Shown here piece by piece: positions 54,654 through 61,986 of a stretch of DNA of 64,000 nucleotides. The DNA lies in NCBI GenBank assembly GCA_037445065.1, contig JBBILD010000002.1, forward strand, positions 128,001 through 192,000. The letters run 5' to 3'. The stretch comes from Myxococcales bacterium (GTDB lineage: Bacteria; Desulfobacterota; Binatia; HRBIN30). A program made the translations under genes and the position numbers. Below the pieces are notes generated by a model. It ran no database searches and was not told the origin of the DNA. It saw nothing but the letters and a program-made list of their open reading frames with translations. How positions within the stretch are numbered: the first letter of the stretch is position 1; every line of letters starts with the position of its first letter.

Positions 54654-55586
54654 ATGAAGCTCTCACCGCGGCACCTCGTGTGGGTCAATCTCGCTCTCTT
54701 AACGGTAGTCGCCTACTTGGCTGCCGCGGCAGTAAGCAGGGCTGTAGCGGCGCGCCTCGTTCCACCCCCGGTGGTTCGGCTGTCGCCTCCGCCGCCGCCC
54801 ATTGCAAAACCACCGAAACGACCCTTGGTCGCATACGCGGCGATCAGCACGCGAGATATCTTCAACCCGGCCAAGCCGGTTGAGGAGGCCAGGATCGAGG
54901 CTCCACCGCCCCCGACGAAACTGAATCTCAAGTTGTGGGGTGTTTCCATTCATTCCCAAGGACGGTCCCATTGCGTGATCGAAGATCTGTCGACCAGGAA
55001 GCAAGAAGTCTATCGGATCGGTGACACAGTGCCGGGTCCCGCTGTGGTGAAGGCAATCGAGTGGGAACGAGTCATCCTGGATCGGGGAGGCTTCGAGGAA
55101 ATCTTGGAGCTCGCGCAGCCAGCGGGAACAAGTGGAGTTGCCACTTCTGGGGCAGCGCGGCCGGTTCTCACTGCTTCTTTACCTCCGCCCGCCACGGACG
55201 CGGCGGTCACCGGCAGTCCCGGCGGCGCGGCCGTATCGGTCAATCCACGCATCCAACAGGTTTCGGAGAATGAGTACCACATCGACCGTGCGGAAGTGGA
55301 ACAGCAGTTGGACAACATGAACCAGCTTTTTACGCAGATCCGCGCGGTGCCCCATTTCGACGGCGGGAAATCTACGGGCTTCCGTCTCTTCGCGATCCGG
55401 CAGGGAAGCGTGTTCGATCAGCTCGGCCTGCGCAATGGAGACATTATCCAAAGCATTAACGGCCAGGAGCTTACGGATCCGGCAAAAGCGTTGGCGGTCT
55501 TCCAACAATTGCGTGATGCCACCGAGATCAAGGTGAGTGGGGTTCGAAATAAGCAGCCATTCGAGACGGTGTACCGAATTCGCTGA
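54654..55586 (+). CDS. gspC: Type II secretion protein C (TM, HR and PDZ domains)
   Basis: N-terminal TM, LNLKLWGV HR domain, GFRLFAIRQGS...LGLRNGDII..ING PDZ; precedes the secretin. Confidence 0.92.
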   Translation: MKLSPRHLVWVNLALLTVVAYLAAAAVSRAVAARLVPPPVVRLSPPPPPIAKPPKRPLVAYAAISTRDIFNPAKPVEEARIEAPPPPTKLNLKLWGVSIHSQGRSHCVIEDLSTRKQEVYRIGDTVPGPAVVKAIEWERVILDRGGFEEILELAQPAGTSGVATSGAARPVLTASLPPPATDAAVTGSPGGAAVSVNPRIQQVSENEYHIDRAEVEQQLDNMNQLFTQIRAVPHFDGGKSTGFRLFAIRQGSVFDQLGLRNGDIIQSINGQELTDPAKALAVFQQLRDATEIKVSGVRNKQPFETVYRIR

Positions 55587-55594
55587 GTCAGGGG

Positions 55595-58441
55595 ATGATA
55601 GGGATGGGCATGGGGAAGCTGTTGGCGACATACAAGAACATCGGGATGCTGGTGGCTGCTGCTTTGCTTGTTTTGACGCCTGGGCTTGGCGCCCAAGAGA
55701 CCCCGCCGGGCGGGGAAGAAGACAGCGCCAAGATCACGATGAACTTCCAGGACGTGGACATTGCCGTTTTGGTCAAGTTCATCAGCGACATCACCGGGAA
55801 GAACTTCATTGTGGATGAAAAAGTTCGCGGCAAAGTGACCATCATTTCACCCGGCAAAATCAGTGTGGACGAAGCGTACCTCGTCTTCCAGTCCGTTTTG
55901 CAGGTGAAGGGATTCACCACCGTACCGTCAGGGTCGATTATCAAGATTCTCCCGACAAAAGACGCAAAAACTTCGACCATCGACACCGTTCTTCCTGAAG
56001 CACGCCCGCAACCGCGGGACGAATACATCACGCGTTTGATTCGGCTGAAGTACGTGGACGCGAACAACATGGTGGCCATCCTGCAGCCACTAGCGTCACC
56101 TGACGGCTTGCTGGCGGCATACACGCCCACAAACACTTTGATTTTGATTGACACCGCCGCGCAGACCGATCGCTTGGCCAAGATCCTGAGCCAACTGGAT
56201 GTGGAAGGACAACAGCAGGAAATCGAAGTTGTGCGGCTGAACTATGCCTTTGCCGGGGATATCGCCGCTTTGTTGCAACAGTTACTGGAGGAGCCGACCG
56301 CGCCCGCGACGGGTGCGGCTCCTGCGACCCAACCCGGAGCGGCACCCGACGCGAGGTTGCGCCGTGGCACGGCCCCCCGGACTGGGGGCGCGGCAACGGG
56401 TTCCGCAATCAGTGGCGGTGTGACGCCGGAAAGGGCGTTCAAGATCATCCCTGACGAACGGACGAACTCGTTGATCTTAGTGGCTGGGCCGGCGGAAGCT
56501 CGGCGGATCAAGGACCTCATCGCTCGCCTGGACGTGCCCTTGCCATTAGGCACTGGGCGGATTCACGTGTACTATCTCAAGTACGCCAATGCTTTCGAAT
56601 TGATTCCTGTTTTGGCCTCTTTGGTGGGGGGAACCGGAGGAGGAATCGGCGGGTTCAGTCCGTTCGGTTTTGGTGGAATCGGTGGGCTCCGGGGAGGTTT
56701 TGGAAGTTTCGGGGGGGTGCGCGGTGGCTTCGGAGGGATCGGGGGTCTTGGCCGCTTCGGAGGAAGTAGCTTGGGGTTTGGAGGGTTTGGTGGCGGAGCA
56801 TTCGGCGGGTTTGGGGGTGGCCTCGGTTTTGGCGGAGTCGCGCCAGGCGTGGGGCTCGGTCTCGGGCAAACCGGGTTTGGCACGGCCGGGGCGTTAGCTG
56901 GGCGCCGGCCCGGACTCGCTGGTGCTACTGGTGCTGCTGGGACGGGTGCGGCGGCGGGTCAGCAAACTGAGTTCGAGGGGCAGGTTCGGATTAGTGCCGA
57001 TCCTGCAACCAATGCGCTGATCATTAACGCTTCCCCTCAAGACTTCGAGACGCTGCGCGAAGTGATCGAGAAGCTGGATGTCCGGCGTCGGCAGGTGTAC
57101 GTGGAAGCAATTATTGCCGAGGTGTCGCTTGATCTCACTCGGGAGCTGGGCATCGAGTTACAAGGTGCAACGGAAATTCCCAACGGCGTGGGTTTTGGCC
57201 GCACCAACTTGCGTGGTGACATCAATCAGCTTTTGAACCCCACCAACTTATCTGGCTTAGTGCTAGCGGCGGCAAGCTCCCAAACCGTCACGGTTAACGG
57301 AGTCACCATTCCTGCACAGCAGGCTCTTTTGCGCGCGCTGGAAAGCCGCTCCGACGCAAACATTTTGTCCGCGCCAACGGTGCTGACAACGGACAATCAG
57401 CCAGCGGAAATTGTTTCTGGACAGAACGTGCCCTTCATCGCGAGTCGGGCCACCAGTGACGTGAACTTGAGCAACACCTTTGCGACCATCGAGCGGCGGG
57501 ATGTGGGAATTACGCTGCGCCTCACTCCTCAGATCTCGGAGGGGGGGCAGGTTCGGTTGGACATCTTCCAAGAAGTCTCCGACGTGATTTCCAACGACCC
57601 GCAACTCGGCCCAACGACCACCATCCGGTCCGCCACCACAAGTGTGGTCACGCGAGACGGCCAGACGGTGGTCATCGGCGGTATCATGTTCGAAGCACGA
57701 GGGAAGAATGTGAGTAAAGTGCCCTTCTTGGGCGACGTCCCAGTGTTGGGGAATCTCTTCCGAACAGACTCCACGCGAAACCGCAAAACGAACCTGTTGA
57801 TCTTTCTGACCCCCCACATCATTCGTAACGAACGCGATCAGCGCAACGTGGCGGTAAACGAGCGGGAGCGCTTGTTGCGTCGCCCATTCGAAGAGATGGG
57901 CCAGCGACCACCCAACTGGGAACAGCTCAATACCCCGTCTTGGGAAGTTCGCCCGTCCATTGACGCTCCGGCTGAGCCTGAGGGGGAGAGCGAGAAACGG
58001 TCGCGTATTGAGATCCACCGCCCAAGTTCTGGAAACGGGGCAGGGGAGAGCACCAGGTCAAGAGCTGAAGAAAGAGGTTCTGCCAGTTTGAATTCCTCTG
58101 CGATTAGCGCGGCCCCACACAACCGTTATGTGTTGCTGGCGACGGTCTCGTCGAGCGGCAGCCCGCCGCAAAGCCTGGAAGGGAGTAATGGCCTTTTGGC
58201 GCTAGCCGTCCCCGCCTCGCTGCCACTTGCGCGTAGCTTCCAGAAGGGCCGCGTGTACCGATTCGTTGGCAATGGCTTCACGGCGAGCTACGTGTGTTTG
58301 GAGGTCTTTGAGGGTCCCAACGAGGCTTTCGCCGTGTATCCAGAGGGAATGCAAGTCAGCACGAACCCACCTAGCTTTCTGCATTGGCGTGAGCCAGTGG
58401 AGGCTTCTGTGCTCGATGACGCAAATTGGAGTGCCGGGTAG
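55595..58441 (+). CDS. gspD: Type II secretion secretin GspD with FG/Gly-rich N3 insert and C-terminal extension (start approximate)
   Basis: MNFQDVDI..ITGKNFIVD, DERTNSLI, ADPATNALII, LDVRRRQVYVEAII, VPFLGDVPVLGNLF, NLLIFLTPHII. Confidence 0.95.
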   Translation: MIGMGMGKLLATYKNIGMLVAAALLVLTPGLGAQETPPGGEEDSAKITMNFQDVDIAVLVKFISDITGKNFIVDEKVRGKVTIISPGKISVDEAYLVFQSVLQVKGFTTVPSGSIIKILPTKDAKTSTIDTVLPEARPQPRDEYITRLIRLKYVDANNMVAILQPLASPDGLLAAYTPTNTLILIDTAAQTDRLAKILSQLDVEGQQQEIEVVRLNYAFAGDIAALLQQLLEEPTAPATGAAPATQPGAAPDARLRRGTAPRTGGAATGSAISGGVTPERAFKIIPDERTNSLILVAGPAEARRIKDLIARLDVPLPLGTGRIHVYYLKYANAFELIPVLASLVGGTGGGIGGFSPFGFGGIGGLRGGFGSFGGVRGGFGGIGGLGRFGGSSLGFGGFGGGAFGGFGGGLGFGGVAPGVGLGLGQTGFGTAGALAGRRPGLAGATGAAGTGAAAGQQTEFEGQVRISADPATNALIINASPQDFETLREVIEKLDVRRRQVYVEAIIAEVSLDLTRELGIELQGATEIPNGVGFGRTNLRGDINQLLNPTNLSGLVLAAASSQTVTVNGVTIPAQQALLRALESRSDANILSAPTVLTTDNQPAEIVSGQNVPFIASRATSDVNLSNTFATIERRDVGITLRLTPQISEGGQVRLDIFQEVSDVISNDPQLGPTTTIRSATTSVVTRDGQTVVIGGIMFEARGKNVSKVPFLGDVPVLGNLFRTDSTRNRKTNLLIFLTPHIIRNERDQRNVAVNERERLLRRPFEEMGQRPPNWEQLNTPSWEVRPSIDAPAEPEGESEKRSRIEIHRPSSGNGAGESTRSRAEERGSASLNSSAISAAPHNRYVLLATVSSSGSPPQSLEGSNGLLALAVPASLPLARSFQKGRVYRFVGNGFTASYVCLEVFEGPNEAFAVYPEGMQVSTNPPSFLHWREPVEASVLDDANWSAG

Positions 58442-58450
58442 GTAACCGGA

Positions 58451-60163
58451 ATGGCGGTCGCAGTCAGCTCTTTGGAGTCGTTCTTACTCCAATACGGGCA
58501 CGTCAGCGCGGAAACGCTCGAGAAAGCTAGAGAGCGGCAACGGGACGGGAAAAACCTCGGCGACGTCCTGCTTGAGATGGGCGCCATTGATGGGGCGACC
58601 TGGGCGCGCGTGGTGGCGGACCATTACGGCCTCCCATTCTGCGACCATCTACCCGATGAGACAGCTGTGCTCGACTTGATCGAGCAGGTACCGATCAATT
58701 TTGCCAAGCGCTACTCGGTGCTGCCGGTGGCTCGCGAAGGGGACACCGTCGTGGTCGCGTGTGCAGACCCGAGTCAGATCGGCGCTTTGCACGACCTCCG
58801 CATTTTACTTGGCTGCCCGTTACGCGTGGTGGTAGCACCGGCGCAGGCAATCATCGATGCGATCAACCGAGCGTACGACACGATTACGGCTGGATCGGCA
58901 TCCGAGTTGATGGACGACCTGGATACCGAGCGGCTCGATTTGGAACTCGCTGACCTCGAGGAACCTAGGGACCTGCTCGATGCGGACGAGGAAGCACCCA
59001 TCATCCGGCTCGTGAACCAACTGATCTTCCAGGCGGTGAAAGACCGAGCAAGCGACATCCACATCGAGCCGTACGAACGGGATTTACACGTGCGCTTTCG
59101 AATCGACGGCATTCTTTACGACATCTTGTCGCCCCCGAAGCGTTTTCATCCGGTAATCATCTCGCGTGTGAAAGTAATGTCGGGGTTGAACATCGCGGAG
59201 AAGCGCCTGCCCCAAGATGGAAGAATTCGGATTCGGTTGGCTGGGAAGGACATTGATATTCGGGTCTCGATTGTACCCACCGCGCATGGGGAACGCGTGG
59301 TCATGCGGCTGTTGGACCGCGCCAGCACGTTGTTGCATCTTGAAGATTTGGGCCTCACGGGAGCGAAACTAGAAACGGTGAACCGACTCATCCGGCAGAG
59401 CCACGGCATCATCCTGGTGACAGGCCCGACCGGAAGCGGAAAAACGACGACGCTCTACGCCTGCTTGTCGAAAATCAACACGGTCGACAAAAACATCATC
59501 ACCATCGAGGATCCGGTCGAATACCAGCTAAAAGGGGTTGGCCAGATCCAGGTAAATCCGAAAATTGACTTAACGTTCGCCAGTGGGCTCCGTTCGATTC
59601 TCCGGCAGGACCCGGACGTGATCATGGTGGGCGAGATCCGCGACGTGGAAACTGCCGAAATTGCGATCCAGGCAGCGCTGACCGGTCACCTTGTATTCTC
59701 CACCCTGCACACGAACGATTCTTTCGGTGCAATGACCCGGCTGCTGGACATGGGAATCGAGCCATTTCTCGTTTCCTCCTCGGTCATTGCGGTGATGGCG
59801 CAGCGGCTCGTGCGGCGCGTGTGCGAGAACTGTCGCGTTGCGTATCGGCCCACCCGCGAAGAGATCGAAGAGATTGGCATTACTCCCCAGCAGTTAGGCG
59901 GACGAGAACTCTTCCGGCAAGGGCCCGGGTGCAGCCAGTGCAAAGGGAAGGGATATCGTGGGCGGACGGGGATTCATGAGTTACTGGTCGTGGACGACGA
60001 AATCCGTTCTCTGGTCATGAAAAACGCAGACGCGGCGTCCATTCGCCGCACTGCAACCGCGCACGGCATGAACACGCTCCGCCAAGACGGAGCAGATAAA
60101 GTACTAGCCGGAATCACTACAGTGGAGGAAGTGTTGCGCGTGACCCAGGACGATATCGTTTGA
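58451..60163 (+). CDS. gspE: Type II secretion ATPase GspE
   Basis: ASDIHIEP, RLPQDGR, GPTGSGKT, TIEDPVEY, LRQDPDVIMVGEIRD, CxxC...CxxC. Confidence 0.96.
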   Translation: MAVAVSSLESFLLQYGHVSAETLEKARERQRDGKNLGDVLLEMGAIDGATWARVVADHYGLPFCDHLPDETAVLDLIEQVPINFAKRYSVLPVAREGDTVVVACADPSQIGALHDLRILLGCPLRVVVAPAQAIIDAINRAYDTITAGSASELMDDLDTERLDLELADLEEPRDLLDADEEAPIIRLVNQLIFQAVKDRASDIHIEPYERDLHVRFRIDGILYDILSPPKRFHPVIISRVKVMSGLNIAEKRLPQDGRIRIRLAGKDIDIRVSIVPTAHGERVVMRLLDRASTLLHLEDLGLTGAKLETVNRLIRQSHGIILVTGPTGSGKTTTLYACLSKINTVDKNIITIEDPVEYQLKGVGQIQVNPKIDLTFASGLRSILRQDPDVIMVGEIRDVETAEIAIQAALTGHLVFSTLHTNDSFGAMTRLLDMGIEPFLVSSSVIAVMAQRLVRRVCENCRVAYRPTREEIEEIGITPQQLGGRELFRQGPGCSQCKGKGYRGRTGIHELLVVDDEIRSLVMKNADAASIRRTATAHGMNTLRQDGADKVLAGITTVEEVLRVTQDDIV

Positions 60164-60238: not shown

Positions 60239-61477
60239 ATGCCGGTGTATGCGTATCGCGGGTTTAACGCGGCGGGTCGGGCGATCGGAGGCATCGTTGA
60301 TGCGGACACGCCGAAAGGAGCCAGGCAAAAGCTCCGACGCGAGGGGATTTTCCCAACCGAACTGGTCGAGCAACAGCGACAAGTACCAAAACGTGCGGCG
60401 ACCGAGTCAACCACCTGGCAGTCTTTTACCCGTTATTTCGAGCGAATTTCTCCGGAAGAGCTGGCCCTCTTAACCCGGCAACTAGCAACCCTGGTGGGTG
60501 CCCGGGTTCCTTTGGTAGACTCGCTCTCGGCGCTCATCGAGCAGTCAGAGCACGCTCGCACAAAGCGCATCCTCTCCCAAGTTCGCGAGCAGGTGACCGA
60601 GGGCTCGTCACTTGCGGATGCTCTGAAGGCACACCCGCGGGTGTTCAGCGACTTGTACGTAAACATGGTGCGAGCCGGCGAGGCGTCGGGTGCCCTCGAG
60701 GCGGTCCTTTTGCGACTCGCGGATTACACGGAAAGTTACGCCCAACTCCGTTCGAAAGTGCGCTCGGCACTCACGTATCCGACGCTCATGGCAGTAACGG
60801 GAGCGGCGATTCTCATGTTTTTGCTAGCCTACGTCGTTCCGAAGATCACGAAGATTTTTGCCGAGAATCAGGCAACGTTGCCTCTCATGACGCGCATTCT
60901 GCTGGCGGTGAGTGGCTTTGCCCAGGAGTACTGGTGGCTGATGGTTTTTGTCCTGCTGACGGCAGGGGTCTCGGTGCAGATGAGCCGGCGCACGGAGGCC
61001 GGGCGCTTGCGATTCGACCGCTACATGTTGGCCATCCCATACCTGGGGACGCTGTTTAAAAAGGTGGCTCTTGCGCGCTTTGCGCGGACGCTCGCCACGC
61101 TTCTGAAGAGCGGTGTCAATTTGCTTACGGCGCTGGACATCGCGAAGAATGTCGTAAACAATTCCCTTCTGAGTCGGGCGATCGAAGAAGCGCGAGAAAG
61201 TATCCGGGAAGGACAAAGTATCGCGCCGCCGCTCAAGAAGAGCGGCCTGTTCCCGCCCATGCTGGTGCACATGATCGCGGTCGGGGAAAGAAGCGGGGAG
61301 CTCGAAAACATGCTGAGTAAGGCCGCCGAGGCATACGACAACGACGTATCCACTTCGGTTGCGACCATCACGAGCGTGCTCGAGCCGATGATGATTTTGT
61401 TCGGGGGGGCGGTTGTGTTGTTCATTGTGCTCGCCATCCTGTTGCCGATTTTCGAGATGAACCAGTTGGTTCGTTGA
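60239..61477 (+). CDS. gspF: Type II secretion inner-membrane platform GspF
   Basis: TRQLATLV, EGSSLADAL, AGEASG.L, ALTYP, GERSGEL, LEP. Confidence 0.96.
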   Translation: MPVYAYRGFNAAGRAIGGIVDADTPKGARQKLRREGIFPTELVEQQRQVPKRAATESTTWQSFTRYFERISPEELALLTRQLATLVGARVPLVDSLSALIEQSEHARTKRILSQVREQVTEGSSLADALKAHPRVFSDLYVNMVRAGEASGALEAVLLRLADYTESYAQLRSKVRSALTYPTLMAVTGAAILMFLLAYVVPKITKIFAENQATLPLMTRILLAVSGFAQEYWWLMVFVLLTAGVSVQMSRRTEAGRLRFDRYMLAIPYLGTLFKKVALARFARTLATLLKSGVNLLTALDIAKNVVNNSLLSRAIEEARESIREGQSIAPPLKKSGLFPPMLVHMIAVGERSGELENMLSKAAEAYDNDVSTSVATITSVLEPMMILFGGAVVLFIVLAILLPIFEMNQLVR

Positions 61478-61572: not shown

Positions 61573-61986
61573 ATGCGTCGGCTGTCCGGTTCTGCTGGCT
61601 TCACCTTGATCGAAATCATGGTGGTAGTGTTCATTCTGGGCCTGTTGGTCACCCTGGTCGCGCCGAGGATCATCGGGCGGACCGACGAGGCACGCCGAAC
61701 CAAGGCGGCCGCGGATATCAAAGCCATCGAGCAAGCGTTGAACCTCTTTAAGCTGGACAATGGGTTCTATCCAAGCACCCAGGATGGCCTGCAGGCTCTC
61801 GTCCAGCGCCCGGCAAACGCTCGCAACTGGAACCCTGACGGTTACCTGGACCAGATTCCGGTGGATCCGTGGGGCAACCCCTACGTGTATTTCTCCGACG
61901 GCACGCACATCGTGATCAAGTCATACGGGGCAGACGGTCAGGAGGGCGGCGAAGGCAAGAATGCCGACATTGACAACCGCGGCTGA
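61573..61986 (+). CDS. gspG: Major pseudopilin GspG
   Basis: GFTLIEIMVVV prepilin motif, FKLDNGFYPST.DGL.AL, DPWGNPY, SYGADG. Confidence 0.97.
   Translation: MRRLSGSAGFTLIEIMVVVFILGLLVTLVAPRIIGRTDEARRTKAAADIKAIEQALNLFKLDNGFYPSTQDGLQALVQRPANARNWNPDGYLDQIPVDPWGNPYVYFSDGTHIVIKSYGADGQEGGEGKNADIDNRG

What the first reader, a model, noticed from the sequence alone, without database searches (positions are those of the whole stretch)
56627..56959. Secretin with an FG-nucleoporin-like repeat insert in the N3 domain
Seen: between the N3 start (YLKYANAFELIPVLASLV) and its continuation (VRISADPATNALII), GspD carries ~111 aa of low complexity, GGTGGGIGGFSPFGFGGIGGLRGGFGSFGGVRGGFGGIGGLGRFGGSSLGFGGFGGGAFGGFGGGLGFGG...TGFGTAG. 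I count 12 FG dipeptides, no acidic residues and a few Arg. Codons vary, so this is not simple DNA slippage. Known: T2SS secretins are ~15-mers, the N3 loop is disordered and faces the lumen, and described inserts there are mostly polar Ser/Gly/Thr/Asn-rich. FG repeats form the cohesive permeability barrier of nuclear pores. Inference: about 180 FG motifs in a 15-mer could fill the vestibule with a hydrophobic mesh acting as a gate or cargo filter, a convergent nuclear-pore-like selectivity mechanism in a bacterial secretion channel.
Basis: partly seen in the sequence, partly recalled or inferred. Interest (0 to 1): 0.85.

Follow-up and report, generated by a model that had tools for sequence, protein, structure and literature searches.

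The report
Glycine-phenylalanine floppy loop in secretin
The outer-membrane channel protein of this bacterium's type II secretion system carries a 119-residue floppy glycine-rich loop studded with single phenylalanines, at a spot where known channels have a short loop pointing into the pore; it most likely forms a soft plug under the gate.

Summary
ORF 55595..58441 (+) is a GspD secretin (TIGR02517, 576.9 bits) in a gspC-D-E-F-G operon. Its N3 domain is split between helix 1 and strand 2 by a 119-aa loop (56627..56983).

- **Site:** this is the known variable, unresolved N3 loop of secretins, about 20 aa in solved GspDs.
- **Structure:** AlphaFold gives no structure for it (pLDDT 30-36).
- **Conservation:** all 120 closest homologues (Binatia and allies) keep a 93-142-aa loop of 37-65% Gly.
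- **What is conserved:** Phe itself is not. It trades against Tyr, Met, Leu and Ile, while total hydrophobic content stays at 19.5 ± 2.4%. Hydrophobic residues are always isolated between glycines, and acidic residues are excluded.

Best reading: a cohesive, compressible, disordered plug or gasket that enlarges the N3 constriction. It is not a nucleoporin FG domain: no GLFG, glycine rather than polar spacers, 119 rather than 500-700 aa, and no known receptor. A pore-like cargo filter is not excluded but is untested. In composition it resembles the elastomer abductin at least as much.

The scan had already noted similar loops in other genomes (e1-3020564, e1-3193349). My paper searches found no description. 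It is a new variant of a known kind.

The parts
55595..58441 (+). gspD, type II secretion secretin, 948 aa
   Evidence: ORF; TIGR02517 576.9 bits; Pfam N0, Secretin_N x3, Secretin
56558..56626 (+). N3 domain, strand 1 and helix 1 (aa 322-344)
   Evidence: AF2 secondary structure E322-327, H333-344, pLDDT about 90
56627..56881 (+). Gly/Phe-rich core of the loop (aa 345-429): 13 Phe, all 12 FG, 3 Arg
   Evidence: pLDDT 30-41, no secondary structure
56882..56983 (+). Gly/Ala-rich tail of the loop (aa 430-463), with the family-conserved GRRPG and QQ.EFEGQ motifs
   Evidence: columns invariant in the 9 closest sequences
56984..57076 (+). N3 domain, strands 2-3 and helix 2 (aa 464-494)
   Evidence: AF2 E465-469, E474-479, H481-494; aligns to the residues just after the unresolved loops of solved GspDs
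56294..56398 (+). Disordered Ala/Pro/Thr/Gly-rich N2-N3 linker (aa 234-268)
   Evidence: pLDDT < 50; sequence
57335..57826 (+). Secretin pore domain (aa 581-744) with intact gate region
   Evidence: PF00263 168 bits; alignment to 5wln, 5wq7, 5wq8
58106..58438 (+). Conserved C-terminal beta-rich domain of unknown family (aa 838-948)
   Evidence: pLDDT 94, pTM 0.85; no Pfam; no convincing fold match
54654..55586 (+). gspC (T2SSC + PDZ)
58451..60163 (+). gspE ATPase
60239..61477 (+). gspF
61573..61986 (+). gspG major pseudopilin

Best explanation
The 119-aa segment is a lineage-specific expansion of the variable, disordered helix1-strand2 loop of the secretin N3 domain. It is a 'sticker and spacer' chain. 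Single hydrophobic residues (Phe here; Tyr, Met, Leu or Ile in relatives) and a few Arg are separated by runs of Gly, and there are almost no acidic residues.

Fifteen such loops would be anchored on the inner face of the N3 ring just under the central gate. They would form a cohesive, compressible, self-healing plug that enlarges the known 'N3 constriction'.
- At rest the plug would fill the periplasmic vestibule as a second seal.
- During secretion the pseudopilus and cargo would push it aside or squeeze it out between the N-domain rings. It would then close around them as a gasket.

Shown here: position, predicted disorder, conservation of length and composition, and compensation among hydrophobic residues. 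Inferred: lumen-facing orientation (from other secretins), cohesion, and the sealing role.
For: **Position**
- AF2 places the loop between H333-344 and E465-469 of N3.
- PDB alignments map it onto the roughly 20-aa gap of E. coli, Vibrio and Pseudomonas GspD.
- It corresponds to PulD's unresolved loop 288-303 (PMC6882859, passages).

**Orientation in other secretins**
- In InvG the same helix1-strand2 'variable insertion' was tied to the periplasmic constriction. It moves out between N3 and N1 when the needle fills the lumen (PMC6155069).

**Disorder**
- pLDDT is 30-36 with no secondary structure over aa 347-457.

**Selection**
- All 121 of 121 family members have a loop of 93-142 aa. Hydrophobic fraction is 0.195 +/- 0.024 and net charge is +2 to +9.
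- Pooled Asp+Glu is 2.2% in the loop against 11.4% in the rest of the protein, although GAN codons are one step from Gly codons.
- Phe trades against other hydrophobic residues. Of 37 sister pairs, 25 move in opposite directions, 8 the same way and 4 show no change (p 0.0046).
- On 14 independent pairs on supported branches, 6.2 go the opposite way and 0.3 the same way (median p 0.03).
- In the closest homologues the loop is 73-96% identical, against 83-99% for the rest of the protein.

**Capacity**
- 15 x 10.4 kDa = 156 kDa. Fully dry this is a 43-A column in a 74-A lumen. At the 470-600 mg/ml measured for FG phases (PMC9918544, section 9) it is 100-128 A.

**Specificity**
- The genome's second secretin has an ordinary short loop.
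Against: - No structure or model of the 15-mer was made, so orientation rests on other secretins.
- In InvG's open state the loop lies outside the lumen.
- 156 kDa is more than the N3 ring alone can hold. T2SS cargo of 60-80 A (PMC5646246) needs the vestibule, so a permanent luminal plug could hinder loading.
- Low pLDDT does not prove disorder.
- Cohesion is inferred from composition only.
- Alignments inside low-complexity sequence are uncertain.
- The trees are FastTree only.
- Fractions of one loop are not fully independent, which contributes some negative correlation.
Confidence: 0.5

Rival explanations
1. Nuclear-pore-like selective phase. The loops condense into an FG-type phase that excludes inert periplasmic proteins. 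It lets T2SS substrates or the pseudopilus tip partition in, so it contributes to cargo recognition.
For: - FG density is 1 per 9-10 aa and there are no acidic residues in 111 aa.
- Constant hydrophobicity with interchangeable motifs mirrors published findings. FG phase separation tolerates motif changes if hydrophobicity is kept, and a YG phase is still selective (PMC9918544, abstract).
- The mass suffices to fill the vestibule at FG-phase density.
- How the T2SS recognises folded substrates is stated to be unknown (PMC9251779).
Against: - There is no GLFG, and the spacers are Gly rather than polar residues.
- The loop is 119 aa, against 500-700 aa for an FG domain.
- Spacers this short made Nup98 phases hypercohesive and impermeable even to transport receptors.
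- No receptor-like partner is known.
- Relatives use Met, Tyr or Leu in place of Phe.
- No Pfam hit.
Confidence: 0.1
2. External or interdomain strut. As in open InvG, the loop threads out between the N-domain rings. It then acts as a flexible tie or cushion between N3, N2 and neighbouring subunits, or towards the cell wall, rather than occupying the lumen.
For: - In open InvG the loop threads out between N3 and N1 and stabilises the N domains (PMC6155069).
- The loop mass exceeds the N3-ring lumen.
- The long disordered N2-N3 linker, aa 234-268, could leave lateral windows.
- Short conserved motifs in the tail (GRRPG, QQ.EFEGQ) could be docking sites.
Against: - Most of the loop has no conserved sequence, only conserved composition.
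- AF2 docks none of it onto a domain.
- The anchor points face the pore in f1 pIV.
Confidence: 0.15
3. Assembly aid. Cohesive loops concentrate GspD monomers and favour formation of the 15-mer in a lineage without a recognisable pilotin or S domain. They would have no role in the mature channel.
For: - N3 is reported as essential for secretin oligomerisation (PMC6155069).
- The usual S-domain position is taken by an unrelated C-terminal domain.
Against: No direct evidence. Tight conservation of length and of the total hydrophobic content is equally expected for a role in the mature channel.
Confidence: 0.1
4. Tolerated low-complexity filler. This is a permissive loop that drifted to Gly-rich sequence, with no specific function.
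For: - The loop varies from 13 to about 140 aa and in composition across GspDs.
- On the tree, the Gly-rich state needs at least 4-5 changes.
Against: - Length is 93-142 aa in 121 of 121 family members and the hydrophobic fraction has an sd of 0.024.
- Hydrophobic residues compensate for one another.
- Acidic residues are excluded.
- There are no adjacent hydrophobic residues.
- The loop diverges only slightly faster than the rest of the protein.
Confidence: 0.1

Closest known systems
Variable N3 loop of secretins (InvG 217-267, PulD 288-303, f1 pIV N3 loop, the 59-aa unresolved N3 gap of D. radiodurans DR_0774)
   Same: It occupies the same site, between helix 1 and strand 2 of N3. It is unresolved or disordered there too, and is associated with the periplasmic or N3 constriction.
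   Different: It is 2-7 times longer. It is about 50% Gly with isolated Phe/Tyr/Met/Leu and almost no acidic residues. This composition is conserved across a large clade.
Cohesive Nup98-type FG domains of nuclear pores
   Same: Both are disordered, depleted of acidic residues and dense in FG. Both keep hydrophobicity constant and line a channel in many copies.
   Different: There is no GLFG, and the spacers are Gly rather than polar residues. The loop is 119 aa against 500-700 aa. Val, Ile, Tyr and Met are used, and FG motifs are packed more densely. No transport receptors are known and there is no homology.
Abductin, the compressible Gly/Met/Phe elastomer of scallop hinges
   Same: [quoted passage not shown] It is 58% Gly, about 1% Pro, random coil and 116 aa long (PMC9999432, passages). 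The loop here is 46% Gly and 2.5% Pro, 119 aa long, with single hydrophobic residues between Gly blocks. Relatives are Gly/Met-rich.
   Different: This is an analogy of composition only. Abductin is an extracellular cross-linked material from an animal. Nothing is known here about cross-links or mechanics.
RGG/GAR and aromatic-Gly low-complexity domains of eukaryotic RNA-binding proteins (recalled, not from a call)
   Same: RGGF and GFGG strings, with Arg plus aromatic stickers in Gly spacers. These are typical of phase-separating domains.
   Different: The loop is periplasmic and anchored at both ends in a ring. No nucleic-acid context is known.

Membership tests
T2SS secretin GspD (TIGR02517) | Equivalog model score above the cut-off | tested here: met
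   576.9 bits against a cut-off of 351.35, covering aa 49-752
T2SS secretin GspD (TIGR02517) | N0, N1-N3 (Secretin_N) and C-terminal Secretin domains | tested here: met
   PF21305, PF03958 x3, PF00263; AF2 fold
T2SS secretin GspD (TIGR02517) | Encoded with gspC, E, F, G and pseudopilins | tested here: met
   T2SSC+PDZ, T2SSE, T2SSF, T2SSG, N_methyl and T2SSJ in flanking ORFs
Secretin N3 variable loop | Lies between helix 1 and strand 2 of N3 | tested here: met
   H333-344, loop, E465-469; alignment to solved GspDs
Secretin N3 variable loop | Disordered | tested here: met
   Prediction only: pLDDT 30-36 and no secondary structure
Secretin N3 variable loop | Points into the channel lumen | not testable with these tools
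   Known for f1 pIV and proposed for closed InvG. No 15-mer model was made here.
Nup98-type cohesive FG domain (features as listed in PMC9918544 section 19) | Overall length about 500-700 residues | tested here: not met
   119 aa per chain
Nup98-type cohesive FG domain (features as listed in PMC9918544 section 19) | Extreme selection against charged residues, above all negative ones | tested here: met
   0 Asp/Glu and 5 Arg in 111 aa; family net charge +2 to +9
Nup98-type cohesive FG domain (features as listed in PMC9918544 section 19) | Selection against Tyr, His, Cys, Trp, Val, Ile | tested here: not met
   The query has 3 Val and 3 Ile. Relatives have up to 9 Tyr+Trp, and Val and Ile are used across the family.
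Nup98-type cohesive FG domain (features as listed in PMC9918544 section 19) | Constant hydrophobicity, about one FG per 12 residues | tested here: inconclusive
   The hydrophobic fraction is constant at 0.195 +/- 0.024. FG is denser in the query, 1 per 9-10 aa, and ranges from 0 to 15 per loop in the family.
Nup98-type cohesive FG domain (features as listed in PMC9918544 section 19) | Prevalence of GLFG motifs | tested here: not met
   0 GLFG
Nup98-type cohesive FG domain (features as listed in PMC9918544 section 19) | Sequence-family match (Pfam nucleoporin FG models) | tested here: inconclusive
   No Pfam family at E <= 10 for the loop alone. Low-complexity filters may hide weak matches.
Abductin-like Gly-rich elastomer (analogy, not homology) | About 58% Gly, di/tri-Gly blocks separated by single residues, very low Pro | tested here: met
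   46% Gly (family 37-65%), 0 adjacent hydrophobic pairs, 3 Pro in 119 aa, compared with PMC9999432
Abductin-like Gly-rich elastomer (analogy, not homology) | Rubber-like compressible network | not testable with these tools
   Needs the purified loop or the assembled channel

The most novel reading that the evidence does not exclude
A whole bacterial lineage (Binatia and allies) fills the vestibule of its type II secretion channel with about 156 kDa of cohesive Gly-plus-hydrophobic chains. These would behave as a condensed, self-healing phase. Such a phase would be a convergent counterpart of the nuclear-pore FG barrier. It would seal the open channel and bias which folded proteins can enter, so soft-matter partitioning would contribute to the unsolved problem of T2SS substrate selection.
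Probability: 0.12. Interest if true: 0.85.

Novelty: new variant of a known kind. Interest (0 to 1): 0.5.

Why it matters
Secretins must pass 60-80 A folded proteins without making the outer membrane leaky. How the T2SS picks its cargo is also unknown.

A conserved loop of about 10 kDa, present in 15 copies under the gate, with glycine spacers and hydrophobic stickers, would add a gel- or rubber-like sealing element to the hard beta-hairpin gate. It is directly testable:
- loop swap
- hydrophobic-to-Ser variants
- leak assays
- cryo-EM at low contour
- phase behaviour of the peptide

The natural series of Phe, Tyr and Met versions in related genomes is a ready-made set of variants. If nothing comes of it, this is simply the longest and most glycine-rich version of a loop already known to vary.

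Tried and rejected
- **DNA slippage array:** rejected. Codons are mixed and there is no tandem repeat apart from a 9-bp x 2.4 repeat.
- **Antisense genes:** the Pro-rich ORFs on the minus strand (56572..56883, 56546..56869) are the mirror image of Gly codons, not genes.
- **Pfam on the loop alone:** 0 families at E <= 10.
- **ESM Atlas on the loop:** best scores 0.82-0.84, below the level at which a hit means anything. Two of the three top clusters are Secretin_N fragments.
- **Regular structure (polyglycine-II or beta-solenoid):** considered and dropped. The hydrophobic spacing is irregular at 2-16 residues, there is no period of 3, and AF2 gives no structure.
- **Literature:** searches for secretin with N3 constriction, glycine-rich or FG repeat listed no paper describing a Gly/Phe-rich N3 insert. 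The library holds open-access papers only. The key GspD structure paper (Yan et al. 2017, cited within PMC9251779) was not read.
- **Scan look-ups:** look-ups by place and by sequence gave nothing for this locus.
- **C-terminal domain fold search:** Foldseek's best match had E 0.55. VIA-align's best had Z 4.2, rmsd 3.8 A over 68 residues, to an intein fusion. Neither is convincing.
- **15-mer modelling:** not attempted, because no tool here returns coordinates.
Full report
**1. The observation**

The window holds an ORF at 55595..58441 (+) of 948 aa.
- It scores 576.9 bits on the GspD equivalog TIGR02517, whose cut-off is 351.
- Pfam finds N0 (aa 49-118), three Secretin_N stretches and the Secretin domain (aa 581-744). 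The third Secretin_N stretch runs from aa 324 to 500, so it is interrupted.
- The flanking ORFs are gspC (T2SSC + PDZ), gspE, gspF, gspG and minor pseudopilins.

Between them lie 119 aa, window 56627..56983.
- Gly and Phe codons are mixed, and no DNA tandem repeat explains the region.
- The FG count exceeds shuffles of the same residues: 12 against 6.5 ± 1.7, with 17 of 10,000 shuffles reaching 12.
- No two hydrophobic residues are ever adjacent: 0 against 6.3 ± 1.9, with 1 of 10,000 shuffles as low.

**2. Where the loop sits**

An AlphaFold2 model built with an 80-sequence alignment gives the N3 domain as strand 322-327, helix 333-344, strands 465-469 and 474-479, and helix 481-494. Residues 347-457 have pLDDT 30-36 and no secondary structure.

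Sequence alignment to solved GspDs (5wq7, 5wq8, 5wln, 6hcg; 15 chains per entry) puts the insert where those proteins have roughly 20 residues.

The literature covers this site as follows (passages read in each case):
[quoted passage not shown] It threads out between N3 and N1 once the needle occupies the lumen (PMC6155069).
- The D. radiodurans secretin has a 59-aa unresolved gap in N3 (PMC10828601).

So the site is a known variable loop. Its size and make-up are what is unusual here.

**3. Relatives**

*Closest homologues.* The 120 best hits are 49-99% identical, and those that carry a source name are labelled mostly Binatia.
- All have a loop of 93-142 aa with 37-65% Gly.
- Phe ranges from 1 to 18. 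Some members have Tyr instead (P0043: F 1, Y 8; P0052).

*Named MAG contigs.* I parsed 67 of 77 loci. By my count from the table, 26 have loops of 93-124 aa with at least 37% Gly. They are labelled Binatia, Binataceae, delta- or other proteobacterium.
- The hydrophobic residue is Phe (GGSSFGG repeats in L027 and L060), Tyr (L048) or Met (L020: 28 Met, 1 Phe).
- Nitrospirota, Zetaproteobacteria, Gammaproteobacteria, Burkholderiales and Myxococcales loci have 13-54 aa.
- Bdellovibrionota loci have 71-87 aa rich in Ser, Asn and Gly.

*Diverse representatives.* I parsed 149 of the 151 sequences (the 150 best representatives at 50% clustering, plus the query). Of these, 131 passed stricter filters: 94 loops under 50 aa, 29 long loops of other composition, and 8 long Gly-rich loops.

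*Tree.* A FastTree tree was built without the loop columns, using those 131 rows plus 13 family members.
- One clade with 99 support holds all 21 Gly-rich rows, 21 other long rows and 4 short ones.
- The query's subclade of 17 rows is all Gly-rich, with 89 support.
- The Gly-rich label needs 5 changes, of which 4 are forced by starred branches.

*Same genome.* The second secretin in this genome has an ordinary loop.

**4. What is conserved**

Across the 121 family sequences:

| Property | Value |
|---|---|
| Loop length | 115.7 ± 8.8 aa |
| Hydrophobic residues (FYWLIMV) | 22.6 ± 3.5 |
| Hydrophobic fraction | 0.195 ± 0.024 |
| Net charge | +2 to +9 |

- Pooled Asp+Glu is 2.2% in the loop against 11.4% in the rest of the protein.
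- The residue after an aromatic is Gly in 909 cases; the next most common is Glu, with 89.
- Phe content falls as other hydrophobic residues rise: rho −0.53 with L/I/M/V and −0.36 with Y/W.

This trade-off survives a phylogenetic control.
- In 37 sister pairs the two changes are opposite in 25, the same in 8 and null in 4 (binomial p 0.0046; rho −0.54).
- The variance of the total is half the sum of the separate variances.
- On 14 independent pairs on starred branches the other hydrophobic residues go the opposite way in 6.2, the same way in 0.3 and show no difference in 7.5 (median p 0.03).

Among the 8 closest homologues the loop is 73-96% identical, against 83-99% for the rest of the protein. 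The query's 14 Phe columns hold 97 Phe, 14 Leu/Ile/Val and 1 Gly out of 112 cells.

Short motifs are conserved: Arg positions, G[ST][IL].GRR.G, and the closing QQ.EFEGQ.

Caveats: alignment inside low-complexity sequence is uncertain, and fractions of one loop are not fully independent.

**5. Physical capacity**

One loop weighs 10.4 kDa, so 15 weigh 156 kDa.
- Their summed residue volume, 1.86 × 10^5 Å^3, equals a 43-Å column in a 74-Å lumen.
- At 470-600 mg/ml it would be 100-128 Å tall. That is the density range measured for Nup98 FG phases (PMC9918544, section 9).

PulD is 200 Å long overall. If the loops are inside, they therefore fill most of the vestibule as a dense phase; a dilute brush would not fit. 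Cargo of 60-80 Å (PMC5646246) would have to displace them. The 35-aa disordered N2-N3 linker may leave room for that, as happens with InvG's loop. This step is inference.

**6. Comparison with known systems**

*Nup98 FG domains.* PMC9918544 (abstract and sections 9 and 19) lists their conserved features:
- 500-700 aa
- extreme depletion of charges, and selection against Y, H, C, W, V and I
- one FG per 12 residues with constant hydrophobicity
- prevalence of GLFG

Here the acidic depletion and the constant hydrophobicity are met. Length, GLFG and the exclusion of Y/V/I are not.

The same paper reports three further points:
- Phase separation tolerates motif changes if hydrophobicity is kept.
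- A YG phase is selective.
- Shorter spacers give hypercohesive, stricter barriers.

These fit a cohesive plug better than a freely permeable selective phase.

*Abductin.* Its composition is at least as close: a [GGFGGMGGGX] repeat, 58% Gly, 1% Pro, random coil, 116 aa, and the only compressible natural elastomer (PMC9999432, passages).

Similarity to RGG/GAR domains and to aromatic kinked segments is recalled, not tested. No Pfam family matches the loop.

**7. Verdict**

The feature is a clade-wide, selected, disordered Gly-plus-hydrophobic expansion of the secretin N3 loop.
- I rate a soft plug or gasket at about 0.5.
- The rivals are an outward-threading strut (0.15), a nuclear-pore-like selective filter (0.1), an assembly aid (0.1) and neutral filler (0.1).

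Earlier notes of this scan describe a Gly/Met/Tyr loop in an acidobacterial GspD (e1-3020564) and a GGGG[F/Y/L] array in a verrucomicrobial pilus secretin (e1-3193349). They agree with this reading but are unchecked AI notes. I did see Gly/Met and Gly/Tyr versions myself.

My paper searches listed no description of such inserts.

Noticed in passing
window 58106..58438 (aa 838-948 of GspD): A conserved beta-rich C-terminal domain sits where Klebsiella-type secretins have the S domain. AF2 gives pLDDT 94 and pTM 0.85. It has no Pfam family. The best Foldseek match has E 0.55 and the best VIA match has Z 4.2. It is present in 76 of 80 aligned family members. It may be an unrecognised fold, perhaps taking the place of a pilotin-binding domain.
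   Followed up: partly
window 56294..56398 (aa 234-268): The N2-N3 linker is a disordered Ala/Pro/Thr/Gly-rich stretch (pLDDT < 50, aa 234-268), much longer than in the solved GspDs aligned.
   Followed up: no
window 56546..56883, minus strand: Two overlapping Pro-rich ORFs of 103 and 107 aa lie antisense to the loop. They are the reverse-complement image of the Gly codons, not genes. The same stretch has a GC skew of +0.40 and runs of G on the coding strand.
   Followed up: no
L002 (own genome, contig C31:17932-21441): The genome has a second secretin gene, with an open frame of 693 aa or more. By eye it looks PilQ-like, but it was not classified here. Its loop at the equivalent site is short and ordinary.
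   Followed up: partly
L020, L024, L040: Relatives have N3 loops dominated by Met (GMGGMGMGG...). L020 has 28 Met and 1 Phe in 122 aa, an abductin-like Gly/Met composition.
   Followed up: partly
L022 and L023: One Binataceae MAG carries two GspD paralogues. Both have Gly-rich loops but with different hydrophobic residues: Phe/Tyr/Leu in one and Met/Leu/Phe in the other.
   Followed up: no
P0204 (5532 aa), P0212 (5131 aa), P0268 (1666 aa): Giant proteins among the representative hits have 9-45 separate stretches matching the secretin query, so they carry many tandem N-type domains.
   Followed up: no
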